64,000 bases of DNA. It comes from a bacterium. GTDB lineage: Bacteria; Patescibacteriota; Patescibacteriia; JACQRZ01. Positions within the stretch are counted from its first letter, which is position 1; every line of letters begins with the position of its first letter. Of the stretch, positions 15,684-51,566 are shown in pieces. The stretch lies in the NCBI GenBank assembly GCA_030688365.1, contig JAUYIE010000021.1, positions 9,866-73,865 of the forward strand, read 5' to 3'. Position numbers and translations under genes: made by a program. Under the pieces are notes generated by a model that saw nothing but the letters and a program-made list of their open reading frames with translations, was not told where the DNA came from and ran no database searches.

Positions 15684-16091
15684 ATGTCATGGTATACTAT
15701 ATATATGGCTCCATCCAAATATACTATCGCAATCATTGAAGACGAAAAGATGTTATTGAAATATATGGCATCAAGCTTGTCGTCTGCGTCTGATTTTAGA
15801 GTCGTTACGGCGATGGACGGTGAAGAAGGAGAACAGTTGGTGATAAAAGAAAAACCAGATCTTGTTTTTCTTGATCTTATCATGCCAAAGAAAAATGGCT
15901 TTGAGGTGCTGGAATCTCTGACAAAAAGTCCCGAAACAAAAAAAATCCCGATTGTAATTCTTTCCAATTTAGGACAAGAAAAAGATATTGCACAAGCAAA
16001 ACAGCTCGGTGCGCGTGATTATCTCATAAAAGTCAACCTTGAAATCAATGATTTGGTGCGCACCGCTCGTTCATATTTAGATACACCTTGA
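15684..16091 (+). CDS. Stand-alone response regulator receiver (CheY-like) domain
   Basis: 'IAIIEDE', 'LVFLDLIMPKKNGFEVL' and 'IVILSNLGQEKDIAQAKQLGARDYLIK' are present. The stop overlaps the pilB start (ATGA). Confidence 0.8.
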   Translation: MSWYTIYMAPSKYTIAIIEDEKMLLKYMASSLSSASDFRVVTAMDGEEGEQLVIKEKPDLVFLDLIMPKKNGFEVLESLTKSPETKKIPIVILSNLGQEKDIAQAKQLGARDYLIKVNLEINDLVRTARSYLDTP

Positions 16092-17779
16092 TGTTTCTTC
16101 CCGATGAACAATTAAAAAAGATTTTGCTGTCAAGCAAAATGATAGACCAAGCGACATGGGATGATGCGTATGCGAATGCCCTTCGTCTTAATGTTCCTGT
16201 TGAGGATATACTCAAAGAACGCGATATTATTGCCGGTCATATTTTGTATGAATTGGTGGCAAAAGCGATCAAAATGCCGTATATAAATTTAAAGACGCAT
16301 GATATTCCGCCGAGAGTGATGGATTTGCTTGATTATCGGACCGCGAGTGTTCTCCATGCCGTCCCGTTTGAAGCGCAGAAAGGTAAACCGGTCAAAGTAG
16401 CATGTTTGGATCCCCTGAATAAAAGGACATTAAAACTTATCAAGTCAAAGTTGAAACGTCCGCTTGAAATTTTTTTGACCGGTAAAGAGGGATTTGCATT
16501 TGCTACGCGTCATTACCAGAAAAATGTTGCAGAAAAAATTAAAAAAGAGGTACAGCGCTTGGCTACAAGTAAAGGAAAAAATACTGAACGAATCAGTACT
16601 TTGTTGGTAGAATATCTATATTATACACATCCGTCAGATATTCACCTTGAACATCTGGATGATGGTGGAGTGATCAAATTTCGCATAGATGGATTTTTAT
16701 ACGATGAGTTTTTTGTTCCTGATAAGGTACTTGATGAGTTGATACGACTTTTGTGTGTCAATGCGCATATTTCTCATGATGCAAAAAATAGTGCCGATGG
16801 ACGGCTTGCTGCCCATGTATTTGGGGAGTTTATTGCGTTTCGTGTATCTTTGGTGCCTGCATATCATGGTAGGACTCTCGTGCTTCGTGTCATCAATGAA
16901 TCATCGCAAAAAATGAGTTTGCGCGATCATGGACTGGAAGAGACGTCAATAGAACTCGTGAAAAAAGAAATAAAAAAGCCGTACGGGCTGATATTGGTGT
17001 CAGGTCCGACCGGTTCGGGGAAATCATCTACTTTGTATAGTTTAGTAAAAATGCTCAATCTCCAAGGTGTGAGTATTGCGACCATTGAAGACCCTATTGA
17101 GTACAGCATCCGTCATGTCAATCAGACTCAAGTGGATCTGGAGTCCGGATATACGTTTGTGCAAGGGTTGCGACACCTGCTCCGTCAGGATCCCAACGTC
17201 ATCATGGTAGGGGAAATACGCGACAACGAGACAGCGGGCATTACGGCAGAGGCCGCGTTGACGGGGCATATTGTGCTTTCTACAATCCATGCAAATACCG
17301 CTGTGGGCACTATCACGCGTCTGCGTAATATGGAAGTCAAACCGTATCTGATCGGCCCTACACTCAACCTTGCCATCTCGCAACGTCTTGTGAAGCGTAT
17401 ATGTCCGTATTGTCGTGAGGGGTATGAGGTTATGAAGTCTCTGCTGGATAGTATGGATGGTGATACACATGTGTATACATCGTTTGAAAAGTTGCGCACG
17501 GTTGGTTTGCTCTCAACCAATGATTATAGTGCATTGCGTTTTTACAGAGGTAAAGGATGTCTCAAGTGCGCGGGCAGTGGCTATCGCGGACGTGTGGGCT
17601 TGTATGAGATTTTGAAAGTGGATGATGAGATACAAAAAATGATTTTGGAGGAAAAAGACGAACAGACCATTCAAAAAGAAGCCGAGAAAAAAGGTATGTT
17701 GACGCTGTTTGAAGACGGTTTGATAAAAGTAATTTCCGGGGAAACGACCATTGAGGAAGTGATGAGGGTGATTAACTAG
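16088..17779 (+). CDS. pilB: Type IV pilus assembly ATPase PilB / GspE family
   Basis: T2SSE_N-like N-terminus. Walker A 'VSGPTGSGKSSTLYS'. Tetracysteine 'CPYC...CLKC'. Confidence 0.85.
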   Translation: MMFLPDEQLKKILLSSKMIDQATWDDAYANALRLNVPVEDILKERDIIAGHILYELVAKAIKMPYINLKTHDIPPRVMDLLDYRTASVLHAVPFEAQKGKPVKVACLDPLNKRTLKLIKSKLKRPLEIFLTGKEGFAFATRHYQKNVAEKIKKEVQRLATSKGKNTERISTLLVEYLYYTHPSDIHLEHLDDGGVIKFRIDGFLYDEFFVPDKVLDELIRLLCVNAHISHDAKNSADGRLAAHVFGEFIAFRVSLVPAYHGRTLVLRVINESSQKMSLRDHGLEETSIELVKKEIKKPYGLILVSGPTGSGKSSTLYSLVKMLNLQGVSIATIEDPIEYSIRHVNQTQVDLESGYTFVQGLRHLLRQDPNVIMVGEIRDNETAGITAEAALTGHIVLSTIHANTAVGTITRLRNMEVKPYLIGPTLNLAISQRLVKRICPYCREGYEVMKSLLDSMDGDTHVYTSFEKLRTVGLLSTNDYSALRFYRGKGCLKCAGSGYRGRVGLYEILKVDDEIQKMILEEKDEQTIQKEAEKKGMLTLFEDGLIKVISGETTIEEVMRVIN

Positions 17780-18914: not shown

Positions 18915-19241
18915 GGCGAATAGAGATAATTATGAAACCAGACTACCATAAGGACTTGATATGATCAATAGAATAGAGTATGATGGATGTCAGAATATTT
19001 TTTAACTAAGGGGGAAGGGAAGTGAAAGATCAAAAAAATAAAGAGGTGCCTAGTATTGTTCCAAAAGTATTTGTGTTTGGGATGATATTGCTTATCCTTT
19101 TGCTATTGAAAGTGATCTCTAATGCCATCCAGCACAATGGATGGATACATTAAACTAATAAGAACGCATCGAGGACAACCTTGGTGCTATTTTTTATCTA
19201 ATTTTCTGGAATAACCACCCCGCTATGATACACTGGACATA

Positions 19242-21086
19242 TTGACAGATTTTTATTATACAATTTTCATGCCAGACATTATACATCACATCCTCAAAAC
19301 ATATTTTGGGTATGATAGCTTTCGTCCGCAACAGGAGGAGATCATCCGCAATGTCTTGGCGGGAAATGATACAGTCGTGTTGATGCCGACCGGTGGAGGA
19401 AAGTCTCTTTGTTTTCAGATTCCCGCCATGGCGCTGGAAGGTATCACATTGGTAGTCTCGCCACTCATCGCTTTGATGAAAGATCAGGTTGATGCGATGA
19501 TCGCAAACGGTATCCCTGCGGTGTTTATCAACAGCAGTCTGTCCGCTCGGGAGATATTTGAGATTCAAGAGGAGCTACAGCGGGGGAAAATAAAACTTCT
19601 TTATATCGCGCCGGAGCGTCTGGCACTTCTTGATTTTCAGGTATTTCTTAAGAGTCTGCCTATCTCACTCATCGCTGTAGATGAAGCGCACTGTATTTCA
19701 GAGTGGGGTCATGAATTTCGTCCTGATTATCGCAACTTACAGCGTTGCAAGCAGGTCTTGTTTCCCCATGTACCCATCATCGCATTGACTGCTACTGCTA
19801 CACTAAAAGTAAAGGAGGATATCATCACACAGCTCCACCTACAGACGCCAAAAGTGTTTCTTGCAAGTTTTGACAGGCCAAATCTGTTTATCCGCGTGAA
19901 GCCAAAACAGCAGGCGTTTAAAGAAATCCTCCTTTTGCTCAAAAAATATACTGATGAAGCGGTCATTATCTACTGTCTTTCGCGAAAAGAGACAGAGACG
20001 CTTGCTGTTGCTCTTAACAAAGAAGGACACAAAGCAACTGCTTACCATGCCGGGATGAGCAGTGATGAACGAAAAAAAGCGCAAGATCGTTTTAAAAAAG
20101 ATCAGGTATCCATCATCGTGGCCACGATCGCCTTTGGGATGGGGATAGATAAACCTGACGTGAGATTGGTGATTCATTACAGTCTACCAAAAAGCATTGA
20201 GGGGTATTATCAGGAGATCGGACGTGCCGGTAGAGACGGTCTTGCAAGTGAATGCGTTCTTTTTTATACCTATGGAGATACGAGGACTCTTGAATATTTC
20301 ATCGGTGCTATGGAAGATGCTGATGAACAAAGGCGAGCACGAGTGAAATTGCAGGAGATAGTTGATTATTGCGAGGCACAGGGGTGTCGAAGGAATATAC
20401 TGTTGCGTTATTTTGGAGAAGTGGGTGAAATGCAAAATTGCGCGAGTTGTGATACCTGTACGACGACAAAAGAGACTTTTGACGGGACAGTCATTGCTCA
20501 AAAGATTCTTTCTGCGGTGATAAAAACAGGGCAAAAGTTTGGCGCGCAACACGTGATTTCCGTACTGCGCGGATCCAAAAATCAAGGCGTGCTTTCGCGC
20601 GGGCATGATAGCCTCTCGGTATATGGCATTGTAAAGGACTATGACGACTCGGCATTACGTCTTTTTATCAAAGAGCTGGCATCAAAGGGCTATTTGTTAA
20701 AAGATGAGATTGATCATAATATTTTTATATTCAAAGTATCGGCAAAAGGCATGGACGCATTGAAACAACGAGCAAGCATTGAGCTTACGAAACCTCCTGT
20801 TGCGATGGCGAAAGGAAAATCGTCATCCTCTGGCAAGGGATCAAGTACACATAGTGATAACGAGCTGTTTCAGGAACTGCGCGCGTTGAGAAGGAAAATT
20901 GCAGAGCAAAGAAATGTACCTCCTTTTGTGATATTCAGTGATAAGTCTCTTTTGGAGATGACAGAGTATTTACCACAAGAGAGGGAACAATTTTCAAAAA
21001 TATTTGGCGTGGGCGCGCAAAAACTTGAGGATTTTGGGCACAAGTTTATGGAAGTGATACGACAGTATGCGGGGAAGAAACTATAG
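19242..21086 (+). CDS. recQ: ATP-dependent DNA helicase RecQ. The start may be the ATG at 19269.
   Basis: 'GYDSFRPQQEEII', Walker A 'MPTGGGKS', DEAH 'IAVDEAHCISEWGHEFRPDY', a zinc-binding Cys cluster, and an HRDC-like C-terminus. Confidence 0.9.
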   Translation: MTDFYYTIFMPDIIHHILKTYFGYDSFRPQQEEIIRNVLAGNDTVVLMPTGGGKSLCFQIPAMALEGITLVVSPLIALMKDQVDAMIANGIPAVFINSSLSAREIFEIQEELQRGKIKLLYIAPERLALLDFQVFLKSLPISLIAVDEAHCISEWGHEFRPDYRNLQRCKQVLFPHVPIIALTATATLKVKEDIITQLHLQTPKVFLASFDRPNLFIRVKPKQQAFKEILLLLKKYTDEAVIIYCLSRKETETLAVALNKEGHKATAYHAGMSSDERKKAQDRFKKDQVSIIVATIAFGMGIDKPDVRLVIHYSLPKSIEGYYQEIGRAGRDGLASECVLFYTYGDTRTLEYFIGAMEDADEQRRARVKLQEIVDYCEAQGCRRNILLRYFGEVGEMQNCASCDTCTTTKETFDGTVIAQKILSAVIKTGQKFGAQHVISVLRGSKNQGVLSRGHDSLSVYGIVKDYDDSALRLFIKELASKGYLLKDEIDHNIFIFKVSAKGMDALKQRASIELTKPPVAMAKGKSSSSGKGSSTHSDNELFQELRALRRKIAEQRNVPPFVIFSDKSLLEMTEYLPQEREQFSKIFGVGAQKLEDFGHKFMEVIRQYAGKKL

Positions 21087-30393: not shown

Positions 30394-31455
30394 ATGACCC
30401 CAGAAAAAACAAAGAAGATCGTTATTACATTGAGTTTGTTTGCAGTAGTCGTTGGAATAGTAGGTGTGTTGTGTGTTTCTTATCAGGTAATTCGTTGGCA
30501 ACAAAATGTTTTATTGTCTGTCGCTACAAAAACGGACTCACAAATAACGAAGGATGCACCCCCTGTTTCAGAAAATGCAATAGTAGTGGACGGAGATAAA
30601 TGGAAAACGTATACAAGTAAGACCAGTGGCTATGCAATAAAATATCCAGAATCCTTTCAAGTCAAAGAAGAAACGTCTGCAGATACACTATTTTCAACAA
30701 CAGATGGGTACTTTCGCATTAGTACTAAAAACAATGATATAAGCACCGATCCGATTGCCATCAAAGATTCTTATTATAGAAATGATCAATACGGATATCA
30801 ATATCAGGATAGTTTTCCAATTATCGCAGGGGTGAAGTCATACAAACAAGGACGATATGACGGGGGTGTTATGGAACGGTATTTTGTACCCTATAGTGGC
30901 AAGATTTATACCATTGAGTTTGAATTCAGTTTTTATCCTCCCGATCAGGCATTGAGCGATACAAAAATAGCTTTCATCCAGAATGTTATTTCCACTATGT
31001 CGTTTACAAATGATACGACTTCCGACATGACAAAATGGAAGACGTATGCAAATGAAACGTATGGAATTGAGTTTAGATACCCCTCAGATTGGAAAATGCA
31101 CGATCTTATCCCGACTAACGGTAATCTTTTTACTGTTGGTATGGGAGCTCCTGGGCTTGGTGATGACACGGTATGGGTGAATATTTCTTCTCAAAGCGAT
31201 CTGCGCACGGCGATCAATACACATGTCAAAACATATATCACCGGTACAAAAATAGAAAAAGAACAGACATCCGTACTTGGCGGTGCGGGGGGCATCCTTG
31301 TCTATTTAAATGTTGGCGGTAATAGTTCGCGTCTGGACCGGTGGGTATTTGCCGAACATGACACAAAAGTATATAGCATGGGTATTACTAATGATGTCGC
31401 GCCGTATGACAAGGAGTTTTATCAAATACTCTCAACGTTTAAGTTTACAAAATAA
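30394..31455 (+). CDS. Membrane-anchored hypothetical protein with PsbP-like motifs
   Basis: N-terminal TM 'KIVITLSLFAVVVGIVGVL'. Repeated motifs 'YAIKYPESF' and 'YGIEFRYPSDW'. Confidence 0.45.
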   Translation: MTPEKTKKIVITLSLFAVVVGIVGVLCVSYQVIRWQQNVLLSVATKTDSQITKDAPPVSENAIVVDGDKWKTYTSKTSGYAIKYPESFQVKEETSADTLFSTTDGYFRISTKNNDISTDPIAIKDSYYRNDQYGYQYQDSFPIIAGVKSYKQGRYDGGVMERYFVPYSGKIYTIEFEFSFYPPDQALSDTKIAFIQNVISTMSFTNDTTSDMTKWKTYANETYGIEFRYPSDWKMHDLIPTNGNLFTVGMGAPGLGDDTVWVNISSQSDLRTAINTHVKTYITGTKIEKEQTSVLGGAGGILVYLNVGGNSSRLDRWVFAEHDTKVYSMGITNDVAPYDKEFYQILSTFKFTK

Positions 31456-31474
31456 TTTTTTTTGCGTATTTCTT

Positions 31475-32779
31475 ATGACCCCCGACAAAACAACTAAGAT
31501 CGTTATCGCCCTTGGTCTTGTCGCGCTTCTTGTTGCCGCTGGCGGAGTAGGGTATACGTTATATAAAAGTTATCAAGAAAGAGTTATGGAACGTTCTATG
31601 CTTGGATTTCCACCAACATATAATTATGATATAGAAAAGCTAATAGAAAAGACCGACAAACAAACCTATACAAACTCTGATCTTGGTTTTAGTATGCAGT
31701 ATCCCTCTGCGTGGCCAGTTGCGAGGGATATGGAAAAGATTGGCGGTAATCTCCGTACCTACATCCATGACGGTAAGTATATGGAAGGATGTTGTTCTGG
31801 TGTGCGTCTGGAAGTAATAGATATCGCTGAAAAGACATTGTATGAAAAATACTCTGACAAAGAGAACCTCGACATCAAACAATCTTTTACGACGATAAGT
31901 CTCGGAAGTATGACAGTAAACGAATATGTACGGATTACCCACTATGGCGATGACGAACGAGTAACATTTGTGCCATTAGGAAATAAAACATTAGAAATAG
32001 GCCGAGGAGAGAATGATGAGGCGGCGGAACAGATTGTTAAAAGTTTTGCATTTTTGGCAGTTGGCGCACCGAATCAGTTATTGGGCAAGCCGAAACTTAT
32101 AGCCAGCGTGAACGATACCGCGCACTCGCAGAAAGCGCTCTTTACAGAAAGAGCATATGGTACACAAGGCAAATTTGGCATGCTTAACACCTATACCATT
32201 ACTAAATTAACATTGGCAAAAACAGATTCCACGGGCTTGGAGCCGGAGATAGAACTGTTGTCTCTGGATAGTAGAACAGCCGATTACAATCCGGACGATG
32301 AAGAGTTTGGGGAGTACGCGTTTATAATCGGTAATACCTATTTTTCAAAGAGCGGGACATATTTGGTTACCAGCACCGAAGGTTTTATGAACACACGGAC
32401 GGATTATCTGATTGATCTTTCCAGGGCGACAAGCATGCAAAAAGGCCACCTTGCTCTTTCTTTTGATGAAAAAGATGTCTTGTTTATATCCGGCGATGGT
32501 ATACGGATGATACCGATCAATAATTTCATGCAGGGCAAACGTTCAGGCAAGACAGTATTTCAAAGCGAGCTGAATATCACTTATGTCCGGTCGATGGATG
32601 CGGATCACATAGCGTTTTTTACCTATTGCAACGGGAGCAACCCGCCTGAAGATGATGAGTTTACTTACAAAGGAAAAATATATCAGAAGGGGTATTATTC
32701 CCTTGATATAAATACGGGACTTCTCATCAAAAAAACTATCCCCGATGGGGTAGATCTGCATTCAGGGCTGTGCCAATGA
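31475..32779 (+). CDS. Membrane-anchored hypothetical protein, paralog of the preceding gene
   Basis: The N-terminus 'MTPDKTTKIVIALGLVALLV' matches 'MTPEKTKKIVITLSLFAVVV' of the neighbour. 'GFSMQYPSAWP' is also present. The start is taken at 31475; the track ORF runs from 31310. Confidence 0.45.
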   Translation: MTPDKTTKIVIALGLVALLVAAGGVGYTLYKSYQERVMERSMLGFPPTYNYDIEKLIEKTDKQTYTNSDLGFSMQYPSAWPVARDMEKIGGNLRTYIHDGKYMEGCCSGVRLEVIDIAEKTLYEKYSDKENLDIKQSFTTISLGSMTVNEYVRITHYGDDERVTFVPLGNKTLEIGRGENDEAAEQIVKSFAFLAVGAPNQLLGKPKLIASVNDTAHSQKALFTERAYGTQGKFGMLNTYTITKLTLAKTDSTGLEPEIELLSLDSRTADYNPDDEEFGEYAFIIGNTYFSKSGTYLVTSTEGFMNTRTDYLIDLSRATSMQKGHLALSFDEKDVLFISGDGIRMIPINNFMQGKRSGKTVFQSELNITYVRSMDADHIAFFTYCNGSNPPEDDEFTYKGKIYQKGYYSLDINTGLLIKKTIPDGVDLHSGLCQ

Positions 32780-32873: not shown

Positions 32874-35069
32874 ATGAAAATAGGTCGTATCATGCTTGCG
32901 AGCGTTTTATTGCTTGGAAGTTTTATGTATGCCGGCAGTTTGTTTGCCGCGACGCAATTTCAAGTTGAAAAAGTGGAGTTGGAAAAAGTCGATGCGATAG
33001 GACAGGATGCTGAAGATGTAAGAACATTTCGTATTTATATCACTGATCCCATAGAGAAAATGACCATTTCGATTTGGGAATATCCGCATACCTCGATTAC
33101 TGATTCCCCATATATGACAACGACAATAAGCGGTTCGTCAGGACTTACTATGTACTATGTCAGCCCCGGATGGTTTACAAAGAAACTGAAGCCAAATACT
33201 TCCTATACCTACCGTATCACAGCGTACAAACACGATGCGACGTCAGATATGAATAACACCTATGAAGGGACATTTACTACGACAAGTTTTAGCCCATTAC
33301 CTGATTTGACGGTGACGAATGTACAGTACTCTTCACCTAGCAACACTACAGGTGAGTCAGGGACTTTGTCTGTGACTATAAAGAATCTTGGTGGTGATTT
33401 GACTAGCGGACAGGGCTTGTATAACTGGTACATGAATTTTAACGCTCAAGATTTTATTTATGATTTAAGCGCATTTAAGAGCAGTCGAAGCATGCCGACC
33501 GTTGCTGATCCTTTGAGTGTGAATGAATCAGTCACTTTTTCGTGGGAAGGGACATTTCGTACCGCAGGTAACTTGTATTTACATTTTACTGTGGATAATG
33601 CCAATGAATTACGGGAGTTTAATGAAAATAACAATACGCTATCAACGACAGTAACAATTAAAAATAAGACCTCTGTCACACGTCCCGAGATTAGCACATT
33701 TAATGTAGGCGACGGGCATGACTATTTGATACAGGGTAATACTATGAATATACAATGGTCATCAAAGAATGCAGTATATTGTATAGCAACCGGGGATTGG
33801 AGTGGAAGAAAGAATGTAAACGGAGTGGAACGTGTGACGGTGCAGTCGTATGGATACAGGAATTATGGACTGCAATGCTATGACAATGACGGGAATATCA
33901 GTATTCCCATAGCGTCAACACTGTTTGCGGGCTCAACATTGAACGCGCCAAGACAGGATGGTGACTTACGTGTTTTAGCTACTCCGGTCACAATCACGTC
34001 GTCTGGCTCGGTTGAAATTAACACGACCTTTAATCAGCAACCCGGCGTCGCAATGATTATATTTACAGAAAGCAGTGCCACTCCTTCTCATCAAGTCGTT
34101 GTATTCCTTGGACCTGACAAGATAAATGGTTCCACGGTAAAGTTTGTGCCACCTCTTCAGGTGAACACTTCATATTTTTATGTTATTACCGCTCAAAGTG
34201 GTAATGTGGCCAAAGATGTGGTCGTACACAACGGCTCGTTGACGACGGCATCTACAGGACAGTTTGAAAATCCTTCCCTAGACAAAAAACCAACAGTATC
34301 CATACCCGAAACTAAAAAAGCAATGGATGCCCGACAAATCGTTGATATTGAGAAAAAAGCAAGCCAATTGCAAAATAATCAAACGGATCAGCTTCTTGCG
34401 GAGTTAAAAGAATTGCGTGATATCGTCAGAGAACAGCAATCAGAGATTAAGTATCTCAAAAAAGTCTCAACCGACTTGCAAAATCTGAACGAACAAATGA
34501 AGCAGGCAGTGACGACATTTGTTACGTATGGCATTGATGATAATACAAAAAGACTGGGTGCGGGAGAGCGCGCCGCGGTGATCAATTCATATAAGACAGC
34601 ATTCAATAAATTACCCGAAACAGATGAAGAGTTACAAGACTTGTTTCGGATTGCAAATGGTCGTTTCCCTTCCCTGACAAACAAAGATGCGGAAAAAAGA
34701 GCAAAAAATGAATTCAGGATGATCTATAAGCGGGTCGCGAATATGGAAAATGCCAATGATCGCGCGGCAATCACCGTGATGGCATACGGCTTGCGCCAGT
34801 CTGCGCAAAACCGGAATCTGAACAGCGAAAGCGCGGCTATTTCCGTGTTTCAAAGAATATATGGCCATGTACCTCAAAAAACAGAAGAGTGGAACACCAT
34901 GCAGGCGATCGCGTATTCAGGCGCATCTCGAAATGCTGACAGGGATAAAGACGGACTTTCTGATGAAGACGAGGCATCCATCGGCACTGATGCGGACAAT
35001 CCTGATACCGATAGTGATGGACACCCTGACGGGACAGAAGTAGATAATGGTTTCAGTCCATTAAAATAA
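32874..35069 (+). CDS. Secreted or surface protein with a signal peptide, beta-rich domains, a coiled-coil segment and a C-terminal TSP3-like Ca-binding Asp-rich repeat
   Basis: Signal 'MKIGRIMLASVLLLGSFMYAGSLFAA'. C-terminal 'DRDKDGLSDEDEASIGTDADNPDTDSDGHPDGTEVDNG'. Confidence 0.6.
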   Translation: MKIGRIMLASVLLLGSFMYAGSLFAATQFQVEKVELEKVDAIGQDAEDVRTFRIYITDPIEKMTISIWEYPHTSITDSPYMTTTISGSSGLTMYYVSPGWFTKKLKPNTSYTYRITAYKHDATSDMNNTYEGTFTTTSFSPLPDLTVTNVQYSSPSNTTGESGTLSVTIKNLGGDLTSGQGLYNWYMNFNAQDFIYDLSAFKSSRSMPTVADPLSVNESVTFSWEGTFRTAGNLYLHFTVDNANELREFNENNNTLSTTVTIKNKTSVTRPEISTFNVGDGHDYLIQGNTMNIQWSSKNAVYCIATGDWSGRKNVNGVERVTVQSYGYRNYGLQCYDNDGNISIPIASTLFAGSTLNAPRQDGDLRVLATPVTITSSGSVEINTTFNQQPGVAMIIFTESSATPSHQVVVFLGPDKINGSTVKFVPPLQVNTSYFYVITAQSGNVAKDVVVHNGSLTTASTGQFENPSLDKKPTVSIPETKKAMDARQIVDIEKKASQLQNNQTDQLLAELKELRDIVREQQSEIKYLKKVSTDLQNLNEQMKQAVTTFVTYGIDDNTKRLGAGERAAVINSYKTAFNKLPETDEELQDLFRIANGRFPSLTNKDAEKRAKNEFRMIYKRVANMENANDRAAITVMAYGLRQSAQNRNLNSESAAISVFQRIYGHVPQKTEEWNTMQAIAYSGASRNADRDKDGLSDEDEASIGTDADNPDTDSDGHPDGTEVDNGFSPLK

Positions 35070-43002: not shown

Positions 43003-44364
43003 ATGGATTATTTTCCACATATACCACTTATCCCACGTATCAAAGCAGTGGCGGTGCGTACTAATAAAACTGCTCTTGGACTGATTATACTACTTGGTTT
43101 AGTTGCTATCGGAGCAATTTTTGTCATCAATGGCAAACAACCTGTCTCTATGAACGACACGATGACCATTCAACCTTCATTAAAGACATTATTAAAGAAT
43201 GCAAATACCATCGCAAATCCTCCTATTTATTATGCGTTACTTTCAGGACAGGATGGTGGGGATGTGCCAAAAGACAAAACATCTATTTATTTGCTCAACA
43301 CTGCGCTGGATAAACCCGATACTCTTGTGGTGGAGCACAATGGTTGGTTACATTTTTATGATACAAACAAAATAGAACACACGTGGCTTGCATCGGTTAC
43401 AAATAGTCTCTATATAATCAAGCCGGATGAAAAGAAGATAGACACAGTGATTACTGCACCCGATGGTTTTGTGATTGATAGTGCTAAATTTTCTCATGAT
43501 ACAAAAAAAATTGCCTACACGATCACTAATGAACGTATGCAAGACGACATGGTGACAGACTTCGTGAAGGCAGGTGAACTTTATATCTATGATATAAATT
43601 CAAAGGAAGCAACTAAAATCATGAGTCGTACTGATTTGGGTGTATACGAACCGGATACCCAGTCAAGTCGCACGGAGTTACTGGTAGATGCCTGGACGGC
43701 TGATGATACCAAAATAATCGGGTCAATGCAGACAAGCGGACTTTCAGGTGTTATTGACGGTGAACGTTTTTATGTTGAGCTTACTGATAATAATATCGTA
43801 AAAAAAATTGACATCACGCCCGTGGGTCATCGATTGGCTTCACTCTATAATGGAATAGTCAGTAATGATGGGCGATATATTGCATATCATTTTTGTCCCT
43901 CATTTGACTACGGACATGATCCATATATTGATTTGGTGTGTCCAAAAGGAGAGGAGATCATGCTTGCTGATACAATGACAGGTCAAGCAAAAAGTGTGTA
44001 CCAAAACTCCGATTTTGCTGATATTCTCGATAGTCATATATTACGCAATATCTACTCAATATATTGGATTGACGACGCCACTCTTGCATTTAGTACCACA
44101 AGTGGTATTTTCCAGACAGGGATATCACGAGAAAAAGCCACATTGTTGTATCCTTTTGAGTGGAAATACGATCCTACAAAAAGTCTTATTGACAGGCCGA
44201 GTATCAGTGCGATATTTGGTGAGAATGTAATCATAACCACGCCAGAGACAGCAGTGACGGCCTTACAAGGGCACGCACTAATCAATCTCACAACAAAAAA
44301 GTTATTTGCGTTGCCGCCAACAGTGGCATCTGATTCATTGCTATTGCAATTTCTTTCCTACTAA
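43003..44364 (+). CDS. Membrane-anchored hypothetical protein with a beta-rich extracytoplasmic domain
   Basis: N-terminal TM 'ALGLIILLGLVAIGAIFVI'. No catalytic motif was recognised. Confidence 0.45.
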   Translation: MDYFPHIPLIPRIKAVAVRTNKTALGLIILLGLVAIGAIFVINGKQPVSMNDTMTIQPSLKTLLKNANTIANPPIYYALLSGQDGGDVPKDKTSIYLLNTALDKPDTLVVEHNGWLHFYDTNKIEHTWLASVTNSLYIIKPDEKKIDTVITAPDGFVIDSAKFSHDTKKIAYTITNERMQDDMVTDFVKAGELYIYDINSKEATKIMSRTDLGVYEPDTQSSRTELLVDAWTADDTKIIGSMQTSGLSGVIDGERFYVELTDNNIVKKIDITPVGHRLASLYNGIVSNDGRYIAYHFCPSFDYGHDPYIDLVCPKGEEIMLADTMTGQAKSVYQNSDFADILDSHILRNIYSIYWIDDATLAFSTTSGIFQTGISREKATLLYPFEWKYDPTKSLIDRPSISAIFGENVIITTPETAVTALQGHALINLTTKKLFALPPTVASDSLLLQFLSY

Positions 44365-47343: not shown

Positions 47344-47390
47344 TATCCACTTTTAAATAATTGTGGGGGGGTAAAAGAGTGGTATACTAA

Positions 47391-50300
47391 ATGCGTACTT
47401 CCTATACTGTGGACAAGATGAAAAATAATGATGACAGACATTTTTCTGCATTCAAAGCGGACATACGACACTTGTATGTTTTGTTTGTTTTTATGATTCT
47501 TACTTTGGGTGTCGGAGTTTTTTTGTTGACACAGAGTAGGAGTGGAGATAGTTTGGCAGCTAGTACAATTGTAGATTCAGGAATTCAGGCTGGTCAGTAT
47601 ACATCAATAGCTATGGCTGCTGATGGCTACGCTCGAATTAGTTATTATCAGCAGAATGGTGGTGATCTTAAATTTGCTCAATGTACGAATGCAGATTGTA
47701 GCACAAACAATCTTACGGTTGTTGATTCTACTGGCGATGTTGGTGAATATACGTCTCTCGCTATGGCCGATGACGGATTTGCGCGTATTAGTTACTATGA
47801 TGAGACAAATACTGATATTAAATTCGTACAATGTACAAATGACGCATGTTCGACAAGTGTTATTACAACAATTGATTCTATGGGTGATGTCGGGAAAGAT
47901 ACAGCAATAACAATGGCCGATGACGGATTTGCGCGTATTAGTTACTATGATGAGACAAATACTGATATTAAATTCGTACAATGTACAAATGACGCATGTT
48001 CGACAAACGTTATTACTACGGTGGCTACGAACTCCCTTGGCTATGGTACCGATATCGCTATGGCCTCTGATGGGTATGCTAGGATCACCCACTATGCAAC
48101 TTCAATATATTCATATTTGCAGTTTATTCAATGTACAAATGCGGATTGTTCGACGAAAAATAGCACAAATATCTATCCCGCAGCTCCGGGGAGTGGGGGA
48201 ATTGGTAGTTCTGTTGCGATGGCAGACGACGGATACGCCCGTATTACATATCACGATGATTCAGCGGGTGGATCCGTAAAATTTGTTCAATGCACTAATG
48301 ACGCATGTTCAACAAACGTTCTTACTGATGTGGAAGCTCAATCCTATTCACCCTCTGCTCAAACATCACTTGCGATGGCAGACGACGGATACGCTCGGAT
48401 TGCTTATCTTGATACTGATAATGTTGATGTCAAATTTGTGCAATGCACGAATGATGCATGTTCCACAAATACTATATCCACTGTTGATAGTACTGGATCT
48501 GTAGGATGGTGGCCGTCTCTTGCTTTGGGTAGCGATGGATTTGCGAGGATTAGTTATTATGACTCGTCAAATACTGATCTCAAATTTTTCCAATGTGTTG
48601 ATGCTGCCTGTTCAAATGCTGCGCCAACAGCTTCTTCTGTCACTATCACTGGTACTGCTGAGGTTGATCAGCTACTCACAGGTAATTATACTTATGCTGA
48701 CACTGATGGTGACAGTGAAGGTACATCCACATTTCGGTGGCTTCGCGATGATGTGGCGATTGATGGTGCAACATCTTCTACATATACAACAGTAGAAGCT
48801 GATGGAGGTACGACTATAAAATTTGAAGTCACTCCTGTCGCCGCTACAGGTACATCTCCCGGCATTGCCGTTGAAAGCGTTGGAACCGCGATTACTGCGA
48901 ATAGCGCTCCCACCGCCCCCACCACACTGTATTCAAATACTGCTATCACCACGGCTCAAGCAGGTAGCGCCAATCCTACGACACTTGTAAATAATGATAT
49001 TGTGGTATCAGCCATTAACAATGACCCAGACGCTGATGCCGCTGATAAGTATGAAGTACAGGTTGCTACCGATAATGTATTTGCGAGCATTGTATATGAT
49101 TCCGGTAGTTCAGGTACTAGTATGACATCCACGGCGGACGGCGCTCGTTCACCTGATATTGGTATTCCTGTATCAATCACCGCTGGTACGACTTATTATT
49201 GGCGAATCAAATTTTGGGATACAAACTCTGCAGAGGGGGCATGGTCTCCATCAGCAGAAAGTGCTGCAACATTTCAAACAAATGCATCTCTCGCAACAGC
49301 TTTGACTACAATAGATAGCACAGGGACAGTAGGGCAATATACTTCCACAGTTGTTGCTTCTGATGGTTTTTCGCGTATTGCGTACTACGATACAACCAAT
49401 ACCGACCTCAAGTTTGCTCAATGTATTGATTCCACGTGTACCTCACCTGTTATAACGTCAGTAGATAGCACTGGTTCAGTCGGTCAATACACCTCTATTG
49501 CTATGGCATCTGATGGATTTGCGAGAATTAGTTATTATGACCAAACTAATGCTTCTCTCAAATTTGCTCAATGTACTAATGCTGCATGTTCCACAAGCGT
49601 TATTACTACAGTAGATAATACTGCTACTTCTGCAGGTACTTTTACATCGATTGTCATGGCATCTGATGGATTTCCTCGTATAGGGTACTATAGTTATATT
49701 GCTGGTGGTAAATTTGACCCGTCGTATTATCAGCTCAAGTTTGCTAAATGCGAGAACGCATCATGTTCGTCAAAAACTCTTTCGGTTGTAGATTCTTCTG
49801 GATCCCTCCAGGTTGGTCAATATGCTTCTCTCTCAATGTCTGCATCTGATGGATTTCCGCGTTTTTCCTATTATGATACGACTAACACCAGTCTCAAATT
49901 TGCTCAATGTACGGATGCCACATGCACTGCACCAGTACTAACTACGGTAGACAGTACTGACACTGTTGGATTATATACATCACTTACCATGGCTTCTGAC
50001 GGCTTTGCACGGATCAGTTATTATGATGCAACAAATAGGGATTTGAAGTTTGCACAATGTACGGATGCCGCCTGTACAAGTCCCGTACTAACAACCGTAG
50101 ACAGTACAGGCATTGTTGGTACATATACATCTTTAAAAATGGCATCCGATGGCTTTGCACGTATTGCGTATTATGATACAACTAACACTAATTTGAAGTT
50201 TGTAAAATGTACTGATGCTCCGTGTACTTCGGGAAGTGCGACGTTTACTTCTGTCGCGAGTGATGGGTCTGTGGGCACCTATGCATCTCTTGCGTTGACT

Positions 50301-51236
50301 TCAAGTGGTTACCCAACGATTTCTTACTATGACGCAACAAATCTCGATCTCAAACTCGCTTCCTGTACGAACTCTGTTTGTACTGATGCGGTGGAAAATG
50401 TCATCCCCACAGCTTCCTCCGTCTCCATCTCCGGTCTTGCTATAGAAGATGGAACCCTCACTGGTAGTTATACCTACACTGACGCTGATGGAGACGTCGA
50501 AGGTACTTCTACTTTCCGATGGCTTCGTGATGATGTCGCTATTGATGATGCTACCTCATCAACTTATGTCCTTGCCACCGATGATGTTGGTACTGCCATA
50601 AAGTTTGAAGTCACTCCTGTTGCAGACACTGGTCTCACCCCCGGTACGGCAGTAGCAAGTAGTGTTACTTCCACTGTTATACCTGCTCCTACCATGTCCT
50701 TTGACATAGACACTGCTACTACAGACACGGAAAGTGCTACACCCTACAGCGTTAGTCTTGGTACACTTTCTGCTTCAACACTCACCACCTCAAACAGTAG
50801 TATCAACAGTATATTCCTTGACCTGACCAGTAATGCAGGAAATGGTTCTACTATCACGGTCATGGGAAGTAACGGAGGACTCTATTCCACAACAGCAGAT
50901 AATACGATCACCCTAGCCACCAGCGAAGAAACTGTCATTGCAGGACAAGAGAAGTTTGGCATGTGTGTCGCAAGTGCCACACAGGTATCAGGAACAGGTA
51001 CATTCACTGCAAGTTCCACCTACGACGCGAACGGCGCGTCAAACTGCACCATATTAAACGGTGGAACACCCACCATCGGTAAGATCAACACCACTGCCAC
51101 ATCCATCCTTTCCACAGACGGCACTATTACCACAGGCAGAGCACAAATACTTCTCAAAGCAAGTATCACCGGCCTTACCCCGGCTGCCTCTGACTACACC
51201 GAAACCCTTACCTTCATTGCTACGGGGGAGTTTTAG
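47391..51236 (+). CDS. Giant secreted repeat protein of 1281 aa. It has at least 16 copies of a ~42-aa repeat, likely beta-propeller blades, plus two Ig-like 'RWLRDDVAIDGATSSTY' modules.
   Basis: N-terminal TM anchor. The repeat consensus is 'YTSIAMAxDGFARISYYDxTNTDLKFAQCTxAxCSTxVxTTVDSTGxVG'. Confidence 0.75.
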   Translation: MRTSYTVDKMKNNDDRHFSAFKADIRHLYVLFVFMILTLGVGVFLLTQSRSGDSLAASTIVDSGIQAGQYTSIAMAADGYARISYYQQNGGDLKFAQCTNADCSTNNLTVVDSTGDVGEYTSLAMADDGFARISYYDETNTDIKFVQCTNDACSTSVITTIDSMGDVGKDTAITMADDGFARISYYDETNTDIKFVQCTNDACSTNVITTVATNSLGYGTDIAMASDGYARITHYATSIYSYLQFIQCTNADCSTKNSTNIYPAAPGSGGIGSSVAMADDGYARITYHDDSAGGSVKFVQCTNDACSTNVLTDVEAQSYSPSAQTSLAMADDGYARIAYLDTDNVDVKFVQCTNDACSTNTISTVDSTGSVGWWPSLALGSDGFARISYYDSSNTDLKFFQCVDAACSNAAPTASSVTITGTAEVDQLLTGNYTYADTDGDSEGTSTFRWLRDDVAIDGATSSTYTTVEADGGTTIKFEVTPVAATGTSPGIAVESVGTAITANSAPTAPTTLYSNTAITTAQAGSANPTTLVNNDIVVSAINNDPDADAADKYEVQVATDNVFASIVYDSGSSGTSMTSTADGARSPDIGIPVSITAGTTYYWRIKFWDTNSAEGAWSPSAESAATFQTNASLATALTTIDSTGTVGQYTSTVVASDGFSRIAYYDTTNTDLKFAQCIDSTCTSPVITSVDSTGSVGQYTSIAMASDGFARISYYDQTNASLKFAQCTNAACSTSVITTVDNTATSAGTFTSIVMASDGFPRIGYYSYIAGGKFDPSYYQLKFAKCENASCSSKTLSVVDSSGSLQVGQYASLSMSASDGFPRFSYYDTTNTSLKFAQCTDATCTAPVLTTVDSTDTVGLYTSLTMASDGFARISYYDATNRDLKFAQCTDAACTSPVLTTVDSTGIVGTYTSLKMASDGFARIAYYDTTNTNLKFVKCTDAPCTSGSATFTSVASDGSVGTYASLALTSSGYPTISYYDATNLDLKLASCTNSVCTDAVENVIPTASSVSISGLAIEDGTLTGSYTYTDADGDVEGTSTFRWLRDDVAIDDATSSTYVLATDDVGTAIKFEVTPVADTGLTPGTAVASSVTSTVIPAPTMSFDIDTATTDTESATPYSVSLGTLSASTLTTSNSSINSIFLDLTSNAGNGSTITVMGSNGGLYSTTADNTITLATSEETVIAGQEKFGMCVASATQVSGTGTFTASSTYDANGASNCTILNGGTPTIGKINTTATSILSTDGTITTGRAQILLKASITGLTPAASDYTETLTFIATGEF
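47763..48006. repeat. Direct tandem duplication with a 150-bp period. 94 bp is perfectly identical and about 104/106 is near-identical, all inside the repeat-protein gene.
   Basis: 47763-47856 is identical to 47913-48006 ('atggccgatgacggatttgcgcgtattagttactatgatgagacaaatactgatattaaattcgtacaatgtacaaatgacgcatgttcgacaa'). Confidence 0.85.
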
Positions 51237-51260: not shown

Positions 51261-51566
51261 TTGACCGCCTCAATATATCTTGATATAATGGGCATATTGT
51301 CATTTTTTATGCCTACACAGTCAAAAGATACAGCTCGCTTAGTAGGACTCGCGCTCAACATCGGATGGCAGATTGCCATCCCGTTGGTAGTATGTGCGCT
51401 TGCGGGTCGTATGATAGACAGAGTATGGCACACCACCCCGTTATTTTTTTTAATGGGAGTTATCATTTCTTTGTTGCTGTCTTCATGGCTGGTCGTGCGT
51501 ATAGTGAGTCGCGTTATCACCGCCACCGCAGATACACACACTGATATCAAAACAGACAAACAGTAA
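51261..51566 (+). CDS. ATP synthase protein I-like (AtpI/AtpZ) small membrane protein
   Basis: Two TM helices. It sits immediately upstream of atpB. The start is possibly at 51309. Confidence 0.5.
   Translation: MTASIYLDIMGILSFFMPTQSKDTARLVGLALNIGWQIAIPLVVCALAGRMIDRVWHTTPLFFLMGVIISLLLSSWLVVRIVSRVITATADTHTDIKTDKQ

What the first reader, a model, noticed from the sequence alone, without database searches (positions are those of the whole stretch)
47391..51236. 1281-aa surface protein built from at least 16 ~42-aa repeats, with a near-perfect 150-bp tandem DNA duplication
The repeat 'DGFARISYYDxTNTDLKFAQCTxAACST..TTVDSTGxVG' carries conserved Cys pairs and looks like beta-propeller blades. Two longer Ig-like modules of ~75 aa are also duplicated at 48630 and 50420. 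At 47763-48006 two copies are 94/94 identical at the DNA level over a 150-bp period. That points to very recent duplication, and such a repeat is a substrate for slipped-strand or recombinational copy-number variation. It may act as a variable adhesin for host or episymbiont attachment.
Basis: seen in the sequence. Interest (0 to 1): 0.55.

Follow-up and report, generated by a model that had tools for sequence, protein, structure and literature searches.

The report
Twin seven-bladed propeller surface protein
This gene encodes a large secreted protein of an uncultured, probably ultra-small (Patescibacteria-like) bacterium, carrying two seven-bladed, lectin-like propeller domains that most likely bind another surface; the striking identical 94-base stretch looks like a local copy-and-paste between two neighbouring blades, not a change in repeat number.

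Summary
The ORF (47391-51236, +, 1281 aa) and the exact 94-nt direct repeat (47763-47856 = 47913-48006) are real. The repeat count and size are not as stated: there are 14 units of about 50 aa (150 nt), arranged 7+7, not at least 16 of about 42 aa. AlphaFold2 folds the first block as a closed seven-bladed beta-propeller (pLDDT 93.5). Its nearest solved folds are the Photorhabdus PLL/PHL fucose lectins (TM about 0.75, 12-14% identity). No Pfam, NCBIfam or PDB sequence match covers the blade, yet about 13,500 protein clusters carry it. Each propeller is followed by an AIR9-type Ig module, and the whole propeller-plus-Ig cassette is duplicated (51% identity). The C-terminal 190-aa all-beta domain recurs in small secreted Patescibacteria proteins. 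Blocks of this blade in homologues peak sharply at 7, so copy-number variation is not supported. The identical tract covers only 94 of 150 nt and has diverged flanks, which fits short-tract gene conversion better than a unit duplication. An assembly artefact cannot be excluded without reads. A single-propeller homologue sits inside type IV pilus operons, which supports an adhesin role. Verdict: an ordinary but unannotated modular adhesin-like protein, of moderate interest.

The parts
47391..51236 (+). Complete ORF, 1281 aa. NCBI uses an alternative start at 47418, giving 1272 aa.
47472..47528 (+). The only hydrophobic segment (aa 28-46). It is either a long Sec signal-peptide h-region, with a possible SLA|AS cleavage site near aa 56, or an N-terminal membrane anchor.
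   Evidence: Kyte-Doolittle maximum of 2.7 at aa 28 and no LPXTG motif. Whether it is cleaved or acts as an anchor is not resolved.
47559..48623 (+). Propeller 1: seven blades of about 50 aa (R1-R7, aa 57-411), each with a C-x4-C pair.
   Evidence: Repeat HMM. AlphaFold2 model: pLDDT 93.5, 28 strands. Foldseek best hits are the PLL/PHL lectins, E 5e-14, TM 0.74-0.76.
47763..47856 (+). Copy A of the exact 94-nt tract, in blade 2 (codons for ADDGFARISYYDETNTDIKFVQCTNDACST).
47913..48006 (+). Copy B of the exact 94-nt tract, in blade 3, 150 nt downstream of copy A.
48624..48881 (+). Ig-like module 1 (AIR9 A9-type, aa about 412-497).
   Evidence: Pfam PF23197 reports 2 stretches. It is 72% identical to module 2.
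48888..49298 (+). Middle Ig/FN3-like domain (Rha78A_N-type, aa about 500-636).
   Evidence: PF25788 scores 27.7 bits against a cutoff of 27.4 when scanned alone, and 23.3 bits in the full protein. The homologous domain in P0005 scores 43.8 bits. This was the most widely matched segment in the genome-contig scan.
49299..50393 (+). Propeller 2: seven blades (R8-R14, aa 637-1001). Blade 10 has an 11-aa insertion.
   Evidence: Repeat HMM. It is collinear with propeller 1 plus its Ig module at 51% identity. This block was not modelled.
50415..50642 (+). Ig-like module 2 (AIR9 A9-type, aa 1009-1084).
   Evidence: Best PF23197 stretch. There is a sub-threshold ZirU_fam hit.
50655..51233 (+). C-terminal all-beta domain (aa 1089-1281) with 2 conserved Cys, ending ...TLTFIATGEF. 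It is shared with small secreted Patescibacteria proteins of about 260 aa.
   Evidence: 31 homologues, none with a Pfam domain. AlphaFold2 model: pLDDT 89, pTM 0.85. No match with E below 0.001 in PDB or BFVD.

Best explanation
The gene encodes a secreted, disulfide-rich modular cell-surface protein of about 135 kDa from an uncultured, probably Patescibacteria-type bacterium.

Architecture, from N to C terminus:
- an N-terminal signal peptide or membrane anchor;
- a seven-bladed beta-propeller followed by an AIR9-type Ig module;
- an Rha78A_N-type Ig/FN3 domain;
- a second propeller followed by a second AIR9-type Ig module;
- an uncharacterised C-terminal beta domain.

The propeller-plus-Ig cassette arose by an old internal duplication.

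Most likely mechanism (inferred): the two propellers are multivalent, lectin-like binding heads held away from the cell by the Ig spacers. The protein therefore acts as an adhesin towards a glycan or surface ligand on a host cell or substrate. The C-terminal domain, which also exists as a stand-alone small secreted protein in related genomes, probably docks the protein onto a partner assembly in the envelope.

Blade number is fixed at seven per ring. The 94-nt identical tract between blades 2 and 3 is a recent short-tract, non-reciprocal recombination (gene conversion) that homogenised about two thirds of one blade. It is not a gain of a repeat.

Shown here: the ORF, the 7+7 blades, the fold, the domain matches, the tract and its boundaries, and the pilus-operon context of the homologues. 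Inferred: ligand binding, disulfide formation, surface topology, the docking role and the conversion mechanism.
For: - Architecture.
- Fold: AlphaFold2 gives pLDDT 93.5 and 28 strands. The top 22 Foldseek PDB hits are all Photorhabdus seven-bladed lectins PLL, PLL2-5 and PHL (E 5e-14 to 2e-11, TM 0.68-0.76). Seven-bladed GH145 glycoside hydrolases come next.
- Extracytoplasmic location: one N-terminal hydrophobic segment, and 30 Cys that all fall in pairs (14 C-x4-C pairs plus one pair in the C-terminal domain). The Cys are at least 90% conserved in 49 homologues.
- Adhesin inference: the family of about 970-aa proteins with the same 7-blade block (P0062) lies between pilB/pilC plus three small genes and pilM/pilN in Terrybacteria. 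In Saccharibacteria TM7x, the minor pilin PilX2 carries a heptabladed, PLL-like propeller and is needed for efficient host binding (PMC11623550).
- Fixed blade number: blocks peak at 7 in 214 homologues. L001 paralogues have 7+7.
- Conversion: 94/94 identity against flanks of 59% and 34%, while other adjacent blades are 62-72% identical over the same segment. Background codon identity is 47%. Paralogues in L001 show shorter exact patches (47 and 49 nt) at the same 150-nt offset, over the same YYD...KFAQC...CST segment.
- C-terminal domain: it is shared with stand-alone and mid-size secreted proteins in a conserved operon.
Against: - No ligand, binding site or expression data exist.
- The blade consensus lacks the inter-blade Trp that builds the PLL/PHL sugar sites. 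Propeller 1 has only W373 and W374 (PMC5584973).
- Identity to the lectins is 12-14%, and neither sequence nor profile searches link them.
- The gene is not in a pilus or secretion cluster. It sits between tatD and the ATP synthase operon.
- Whether the N-terminal segment is cleaved is unknown, so it is unclear which end faces outward.
- The tract comes from a single metagenome assembly with no independent copy, so an assembly or polishing artefact cannot be excluded.
- Taxonomic placement rests only on the homologues' labels. NCBI labels this record 'bacterium'.
Confidence: 0.6

Rival explanations
1. The repeat array is a contingency locus, and the identical 150-bp-spaced tract drives slipped-strand or recombinational gain and loss of blades, producing a variable adhesin.
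For: Two identical 94-nt direct repeats 150 nt apart are long enough for homologous recombination, and losing one 150-nt unit would stay in frame. Related genes carry similar short identical patches.
Against: Only two of the 14 units share identity, and over only 94 of 150 nt. All other pairs are 45-73% identical. Blade blocks in homologues peak sharply at 7, with a secondary peak at 14. The model is a closed 7-blade ring, so a 6- or 8-blade product would probably misfold. No length variants exist in any collection searched.
Confidence: 0.08
2. The identical tract is an assembly or polishing artefact. Reads from blades 2 and 3, or from co-existing strains, were merged, so the true sequences differ.
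For: The sequence is a single metagenome-assembled contig. The protein is a singleton cluster with no second assembly. Repeats are a classic source of consensus errors.
Against: The reading frame is intact and the blade count is exactly 7+7. Blades 2 and 3 are modelled at a pLDDT of about 98. The tract boundaries fall inside units, with normally diverged flanks. An independent MAG (L001) shows the same kind of patch, at the same offset and blade segment, in two paralogues.
Confidence: 0.15
3. The propellers are catalytic (glycoside hydrolase, lyase or sialidase-like) rather than adhesive, making the protein a surface-bound polysaccharide-degrading enzyme.
For: After the lectins, the next structural neighbours are seven-bladed GH145 enzymes (BT3686 and relatives, E about 2e-11, TM 0.70), L-rhamnose-alpha-1,4-D-glucuronate lyase, and six-bladed sialidases. 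The middle domain resembles the N-terminal Ig domain of a rhamnosidase.
Against: There is no sequence similarity to any enzyme family. All seven blades are near-equivalent repeats, as in tandem-repeat lectins, whereas enzymes usually have differentiated blades. The same propeller occurs in a pilus-operon protein.
Confidence: 0.12
4. The protein is a structural envelope component (an S-layer-like or fibre-associated scaffold), and the propellers mediate self-assembly rather than binding to a foreign surface.
For: The C-terminal domain is shared with abundant small secreted proteins. These are encoded in a conserved operon of secreted and membrane-anchored Ig-like proteins. Weak fold hits point to chaperone-usher pilins (E 0.016-0.04, TM 0.35).
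Against: The fold hits are not significant. No such operon lies in the 64-kb window. Giant multi-propeller paralogues occur as variable tandem arrays, which is more typical of adhesins.
Confidence: 0.1

Closest known systems
Photorhabdus PLL/PHL family of seven-bladed beta-propeller fucose lectins (PDB 5C9L, 5MXG, 6RG2, 8Q83)
   Same: Both are seven blades of about 50 aa built from four-stranded sheets. These lectins are the best structural match (TM 0.74-0.76, E 5e-14). They are tandem-repeat, multivalent proteins (PMC5584973).
   Different: Identity is only 12-14%, and there is no sequence or profile link. The conserved inter-blade Trp of the sugar sites is absent. The PLL lectins are soluble single-domain proteins of about 370 aa, whereas here two propellers are embedded in a 1281-aa modular protein. 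The per-blade C-x4-C pair defines this family. The PHL paper reports only a single inter-subunit disulfide, at Cys279.
Saccharibacteria TM7x PilX2 (type IV pilus minor pilin with a C-terminal heptabladed propeller) and Pseudomonas PilY1
   Same: All are seven-bladed propellers used as surface binding heads. PilX2 is from a Patescibacteria lineage, is reported as PLL-like, and is needed for efficient host binding (PMC11623550). A homologue family of about 970-aa proteins carrying this exact blade type sits in type IV pilus operons.
   Different: This protein has no pilin-like N-terminus and is not in a pilus operon. It has two propellers. PilX2 blades are described as RCC1 repeats, and no RCC1 match was found here.
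Large WxL proteins of Firmicutes (a C-terminal WxL domain plus N-terminal adhesive domains, encoded with small WxL proteins and WxLIP/DUF916)
   Same: The logic is the same: a shared C-terminal domain found in small domain-only proteins and in large adhesin-like proteins. In homologue loci the next gene but one is a TM-anchored Ig-like protein, and 34 of 35 of its relatives hit PF06030 WxLIP_PGBD below threshold (PMC10599100 and PMC9772566).
   Different: The C-terminal domain has no Trp-x-Leu motif and no Trp at all. There is no Pfam WxL hit. The WxLIP-like hits are sub-threshold and overlap stronger generic fn3_5 hits. No such cluster lies in this window.
AIR9 A9 / ZirU-type Ig-like domain (Pfam PF23197)
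   Same: There are two confident matches, at 65.6 bits. The module is 57-70% identical to copies in many unrelated surface proteins carrying S-layer homology, T9SS or FG-GAP domains.
   Different: It is only a spacer module here, and its presence says nothing about the protein's specific function.

Membership tests
PLL/PHL seven-bladed lectin family | Seven-bladed beta-propeller fold with blades of about 50 aa | tested here: met
   AlphaFold2 gives 28 strands at pLDDT 93.5. Foldseek TM is 0.74-0.76 to PLL, PLL2-5 and PHL.
PLL/PHL seven-bladed lectin family | Detectable sequence homology to PLL/PHL | tested here: not met
   phmmer and a 49-sequence profile against all PDB sequences find no lectin. 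Identity in the structural alignments is 12-14%.
PLL/PHL seven-bladed lectin family | Conserved Trp-containing inter-blade fucose or galactose sites | tested here: not met
   Only W373 and W374 occur in propeller 1, and there are none in propeller 2. The blade consensus has no Trp. The site description comes from PMC5584973.
Known propeller repeat families in Pfam/NCBIfam (WD40, Kelch, RCC1, BNR, PD40, FG-GAP and others) | A match to the family model at or above its cutoff | tested here: not met
   No propeller family was reported for the protein at E up to 1. Homologues made only of blades also have no hits (P0014).
IG_AIR9 (PF23197) | A score above Pfam's gathering cutoff | tested here: met
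   65.6 bits against 27.5, in 2 stretches.
Ig_Rha78A_N (PF25788) | A score above Pfam's gathering cutoff | tested here: inconclusive
   27.7 against 27.4 bits for the isolated segment, but 23.3 bits in the whole protein. The homologous domain in P0005 scores 43.8 bits.
Type IV pilus minor pilin / tip adhesin (PilX2- or PilY1-like) | Encoded within a type IV pilus gene cluster | tested here: not met
   The neighbours are metG, cvpA and tatD upstream, and atpZ-like and atpB downstream. A PilB-like ATPase lies 30 kb away. The feature is met by the homologue P0062.
Type IV pilus minor pilin / tip adhesin (PilX2- or PilY1-like) | A pilin-like N-terminal segment | not tested
   The N-terminus has one hydrophobic segment, aa 28-46. 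No pilin or prepilin-peptidase-site model was run on it.
WxL large surface proteins | [quoted passage not shown] | tested here: not met
   The domain aa 1089-1281 contains no Trp. It has no Pfam hit, nor do its 31 homologues.
WxL large surface proteins | Co-encoded small domain-only protein and WxLIP (DUF916-DUF3324-TM) | tested here: inconclusive
   In the homologue loci L002 and L003 there is a small protein, a mid-size protein, and a TM protein whose family hits PF06030 below cutoff in 34 of 35 members (best E 3.8e-4). No DUF3324 hit was found, and nothing comparable lies in this window.
Sortase-anchored (LPXTG) surface proteins | A C-terminal LPXTG motif followed by a hydrophobic tail | tested here: not met
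   There is no LPxTG motif, and the C-terminus is not hydrophobic.
Phase-variable / contingency repeat locus | Several near-identical tandem units, with copy number differing among relatives | tested here: not met
   Only one 94-nt patch is identical, and the other units are 45-73% identical. Block size peaks at 7 in homologues. Population-level data are not available.

The most novel reading that the evidence does not exclude
There are two linked readings.

(1) The C-x4-C blade defines a large propeller family that was not matched by any Pfam, NCBIfam or PDB sequence search here (about 13,500 clusters at 50% identity). Patescibacteria would use it as a host-recognition head both on type IV pilus-associated proteins and on free-standing giant surface proteins.

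(2) The C-terminal domain, together with the conserved operon of small and mid-size domain proteins and a TM-anchored Ig-like protein, would form a previously undescribed surface-docking system in Patescibacteria. It would work like Firmicute WxL clusters, or like two-domain tip adhesins of chaperone-usher pili. This protein would be its 'large' adhesive subunit.
Probability: 0.2. Interest if true: 0.65.

Novelty: new member of a known kind. Interest (0 to 1): 0.4.

Why it matters
How ultra-small episymbiotic bacteria recognise and hold on to their hosts is largely unknown. So far only pilus components have been tested, and only in cultured Saccharibacteria.

This protein, and the roughly 13,500-cluster blade family it belongs to, give concrete and structurally well-predicted candidates for binding heads. 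The family is present both in a pilus-operon protein and in stand-alone giant surface proteins.

The C-terminal domain points to a conserved operon with no functional annotation in the libraries searched here, which may explain how such proteins are displayed.

The 94-nt patch is a small, clean example of intragenic homogenisation in a repeat protein whose repeat number is structurally locked. That is a useful caution against reading every identical repeat as a phase-variation switch.

Tried and rejected
- Pfam, NCBIfam and PDB sequence searches on the whole protein found nothing for the blades or the C-terminal domain.
- The weak hits to the Ogr/Delta zinc finger, PyrI_C, LolA, Piezo_cap and others are sub-threshold. 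I judge them composition or C-x4-C artefacts.
- The profile of the propeller family against PDB gave only a spurious hit to a designed TIM barrel, sTIM11.
- Rfam on the whole window gave no hits.
- Tandem Repeats Finder did not report the 94-nt pair, because the units as a whole are too diverged. It found only the 49842-50218 array at 73% identity.
- Looking for an independent assembly of the gene failed: no exact record for either start, and the protein is a singleton cluster.
- The GTDB species-representative scan found no orthologue above 55% identity. The copy-number comparison therefore had to use paralogue-level relatives.
- I rejected unequal crossing-over as the origin of the tract. 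It predicts that the front of blade 3 would be identical to the front of blade 4, and it is not (sequences).
- I did not adopt a zinc-binding role for the C-x4-C pairs. There are only two Cys per blade, and the protein has an even Cys count with an extracytoplasmic architecture. This alternative is not formally excluded.


Full report
OBSERVATION

The ORF 47391..51236 (+) is real and encodes 1281 aa. NCBI holds the same protein from Met10 (1272 aa, MDP2656684.1, 'MAG: hypothetical protein Q8P11_03930 [bacterium]'). It is a singleton cluster from one 96-kb contig.

The DNA repeat period is 150 nt, so the protein unit is about 50 aa, not 42. An HMM built from the units finds exactly 14 copies. 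Seven lie at aa 57-411 and seven at aa 637-1001, and none occurs elsewhere in the 64-kb window.

Every unit has a C-x4-C pair. The protein has 30 Cys in all: 14 such pairs plus one pair in the C-terminal domain.

The exact 94-nt match 47763-47856 = 47913-48006 is confirmed. It is the only exact repeat of 28 nt or more in the window.

The two Ig-like modules are 72% identical over 85 aa and match Pfam IG_AIR9 at 65.6 bits.

IS THE TRACT CHANCE, AND WHAT KIND OF EVENT WAS IT?

Pairwise DNA identity between blades is 45-73%. Blades 2 and 3 reach 85% only because of the tract. Among identical residues in all other blade pairs, only 47% of codons are identical (1071/2270). A run of 31 identical codons therefore has a probability of about 1e-10 (my calculation from that figure).

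The identity is sharply bounded. It is 59% in the 54 nt to the left within the same units, 100% over the 94 nt, and 34% in the next 56 nt. Other adjacent blades are 62-72% identical over the same segment.

A tandem duplication of a unit would give 150 identical bases. An unequal crossover would also make the front of blade 3 identical to the front of blade 4. Neither pattern is seen.

The pattern fits a short non-reciprocal recombination patch (gene conversion) between neighbouring blades. Two paralogues in an independent MAG (L001) carry 47- and 49-nt exact patches at the same 150-nt offset, over the same YYD...KFAQC...CST segment. This argues that such patches are biological and recurrent. 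I could not find a second assembly of this gene, so an artefact cannot be formally excluded.

WHAT THE REPEATS ARE

With a 49-sequence alignment (A1), AlphaFold2 folds aa 55-412 with mean pLDDT 93.5 and pTM 0.92. The model has 28 beta-strands, which is seven four-stranded blades. The N-terminal strand apparently completes the last blade, as read from the strand order.

The C-x4-C pair brackets the loop between the third strand of a blade and the fourth. This is read from the DSSP register. An intra-blade disulfide is inferred, not measured.

Foldseek against the PDB puts the Photorhabdus seven-bladed lectins PLL, PLL2-5 and PHL in the first 22 places (E 5e-14 to 2e-11, TM 0.68-0.76, 12-14% identity). 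Seven-bladed GH145 hydrolases, a rhamnose-glucuronate lyase and six-bladed sialidases follow.

There is no sequence-level link to any solved structure, even with a profile. No Pfam or NCBIfam repeat family matches. PLL/PHL sugar sites lie between blades and depend on conserved Trp (PMC5584973). The blade consensus here has no Trp. The propeller is therefore lectin-like in fold but is not a member of that family.

The blade family is large. A search of 1.84 billion cluster representatives with propeller 1 gave 13,543 proteins at E up to 1e-3, 8,768 at E up to 1e-10, and 2,930 at E up to 1e-30.

ARCHITECTURE

- aa 28-46: the only hydrophobic segment. It is either a signal peptide with a possible SLA|AS cleavage site or a membrane anchor. 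This is unresolved.
- aa 57-411: propeller 1.
- aa about 412-497: AIR9-type Ig module.
- aa about 500-636: an Ig/FN3 domain matching PF25788 Ig_Rha78A_N marginally (27.7 against 27.4 bits alone; 43.8 bits for the homologous domain in P0005).
- aa 637-1001: propeller 2.
- aa 1009-1084: AIR9-type Ig module.
- aa 1089-1281: C-terminal domain.

Propeller 1 plus its Ig module aligns collinearly with propeller 2 plus its Ig module at 51% identity (E 6e-141). The cassette as a whole was therefore duplicated long ago. There is no LPXTG motif. The gene's GC content (0.439) is close to that of the window (0.418).

IS BLADE NUMBER VARIABLE?

I ran the repeat HMM on 286 homologues, and 214 carried repeats. 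Contiguous blocks peak sharply at 7 (156 blocks), with a secondary peak at 14 (13 blocks). Many smaller blocks also occur. I attribute these to proteins cut at contig ends or to diverged blades missed by a model built from this protein only.

In L001 three consecutive giant paralogues (1549, 1790 and 2924 aa) carry 7+7, 7+7 and at least 26 blades. The pilus-linked family carries 7.

Together with the closed-ring model, this means a 150-nt gain or loss would produce a non-closing propeller. The comparative data give no support for copy-number variation.

FUNCTION

The nearest full-architecture relatives are in groundwater MAGs labelled 'bacterium', Gracilibacteria, Giovannonibacteria, Terrybacteria and Patescibacteria. 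The best match is 47% identical over aa 25-1281, and no orthologue was found.

A family of about 970-aa proteins (P0018, P0048, P0057, P0062 and others) has an N-terminal hydrophobic segment, one 7-blade block of this same type, a sub-threshold choice-of-anchor-R-like domain (25 against 30 bits) and a further C-terminal region. In Candidatus Terrybacteria its gene lies between pilB, pilC and three small genes on one side and pilM and pilN on the other.

In the cultured Saccharibacterium TM7x, the minor pilin PilX2 carries a heptabladed propeller. The authors found it PLL-like, and its deletion halves host binding (PMC11623550).

These points make an adhesive, probably glycan-directed, role the best-supported inference for the propeller module. 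The present gene, however, is not in a pilus cluster. It sits between metG, cvpA and tatD on one side and an atpZ-like gene plus the ATP synthase operon on the other. A PilB-like ATPase lies 30 kb upstream.

C-TERMINAL DOMAIN

The last 193 aa have 31 homologues, mostly secreted Patescibacteria proteins of 230-300 aa, none with a Pfam domain. The AlphaFold2 model is confident (pLDDT 89, pTM 0.85, all-beta). It has no match with E below 0.001 in the PDB or BFVD. The best PDB hits, all weak, are chaperone-usher pilins: CfaB, CsuA/B and the PapG pilin domain (E 0.016-0.04, TM 0.35).

The stand-alone proteins sit in a conserved operon, in this order:
- a giant LamG/DUF2341 protein;
- a 135-aa TM protein;
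- the 264-aa domain-only protein;
- a 366-aa protein with the same domain at its C-terminus;
- a 328-aa protein with a C-terminal TM helix;
- a Big_6 plus dockerin protein;
- two further secreted proteins;
- an SBP_bac_3 protein.

The 328-aa protein belongs to a family with more than 690 members, all listed as hypothetical or unnamed. Of 35 members scanned, 34 hit PF06030 (WxL-interacting protein, peptidoglycan-binding domain) below threshold, with a best E of 3.8e-4. In addition, 28 hit the generic fn3_5 model more strongly.

The arrangement mirrors Firmicute WxL clusters, which hold a small WxL protein, a large WxL protein with N-terminal adhesive domains, and WxLIP (PMC10599100, PMC9772566). 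The defining WxL motif is absent, however, and the domain has no Trp. I therefore treat 'works like a WxL or two-domain-adhesin docking module' as a low-confidence hypothesis, not as family membership. No such operon lies in the 64-kb window.

VERDICT

It also overstates the duplication. Its interpretation is right on propeller blades and plausible on adhesion. It is not supported on recent unit duplication or on copy-number variability.

The object is an unannotated but recognisable kind of protein: a modular, lectin-like surface adhesin candidate. Two by-products are worth following. One is the large blade family that matched no Pfam, NCBIfam or PDB sequence. The other is a conserved Patescibacteria operon that shares the C-terminal domain.

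Noticed in passing
L003:7563-15177 and L002:911-8567 (homologue loci); domain in window 50655-51233: This is a conserved Patescibacteria operon of secreted and TM-anchored proteins with almost no confident Pfam matches. It holds a 264-aa protein consisting only of the window protein's C-terminal domain, and a 366-aa protein with that domain at its C-terminus. It also holds a 328-aa TM protein; 34 of 35 scanned members of its family (more than 690 homologues) hit WxLIP_PGBD (PF06030) below threshold. The layout resembles a WxL-like surface-display cluster.
   Followed up: partly
L005:2999-12787 (Candidatus Terrybacteria, GCA_001822905.1) and L006: A 980-aa protein with one 7-blade block of the same Cys-loop type lies inside a type IV pilus operon: pilB, pilC, three small genes, the 980-aa gene, then pilM and pilN. 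This suggests a PilY1- or PilX2-like pilus-associated adhesin family in Parcubacteria-type lineages.
   Followed up: partly
L001:3348-21373 (MAG nzgw375, JAHFJA010000008.1): Three consecutive giant paralogues (1549, 1790 and 2924 aa) carry 14, 14 and at least 26 blades. The first two also carry the same C-terminal domain, and all three hit Laminin_G_3. This is a tandem array of multi-propeller surface proteins.
   Followed up: partly
L001:5562-5608 / 5712-5758 and 19059-19107 / 19209-19257: Exact 47- and 49-nt patches occur between adjacent blades at a 150-nt offset. They cover the same blade segment as part of the window's 94-nt tract. This suggests recurrent short-tract homogenisation in the gene family.
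   Followed up: partly
window 47380-47420: The start codon is ambiguous: ATG at 47391 (1281 aa) or ATG at 47418 (1272 aa, NCBI's choice). A TGgTATACT extended -10-like motif at about 47380-47388 sits 3 nt before the first ATG, which would favour the downstream start.
   Followed up: no
window 51261-51566: A small ORF matches PF09527 (putative F0F1-ATPase subunit, AtpZ/AtpI-like; E 1.7e-11). A strong promoter-like site (TTGACC-17-TATAAT with an upstream TG) lies at 51261-51289. The ATP synthase operon therefore probably has its own promoter just after the surface-protein gene.
   Followed up: partly
window 16088-17779 and 32874-35069: A PilB-type ATPase (T2SSE plus MshEN) lies 30 kb upstream, so the genome encodes type IV pilus machinery. 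A 731-aa CARDB-domain protein is another probable surface protein.
   Followed up: no
window 1-64000: No Rfam family reaches its gathering score anywhere in the 64 kb, so no tRNA or riboswitch was detected. Nearly all large ORFs are on the + strand, and cumulative GC skew rises steadily.
   Followed up: no
window 48556-48583, 49534-49561, 49870-49897 (minus strand): Three identical promoter-like matches (TTGAGA-16-CATAAT) lie on the antisense strand. They fall at the same position in different blades and are most simply a by-product of the repeated coding sequence.
   Followed up: no
window 43003-44364, 14076-15596, 31310-32779: Three ORFs of 453, 506 and 489 aa have no Pfam match at the thresholds used.
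   Followed up: no
window 48624-48881 and 50415-50642: The AIR9-type Ig module is 57-70% identical to copies in proteins from many labelled lineages, including Cellulosilyticum S-layer-homology proteins, T9SS-sorted Cyclobacteriaceae proteins and a Mariprofundus protein. That is unusually high conservation for a spacer domain.
   Followed up: no
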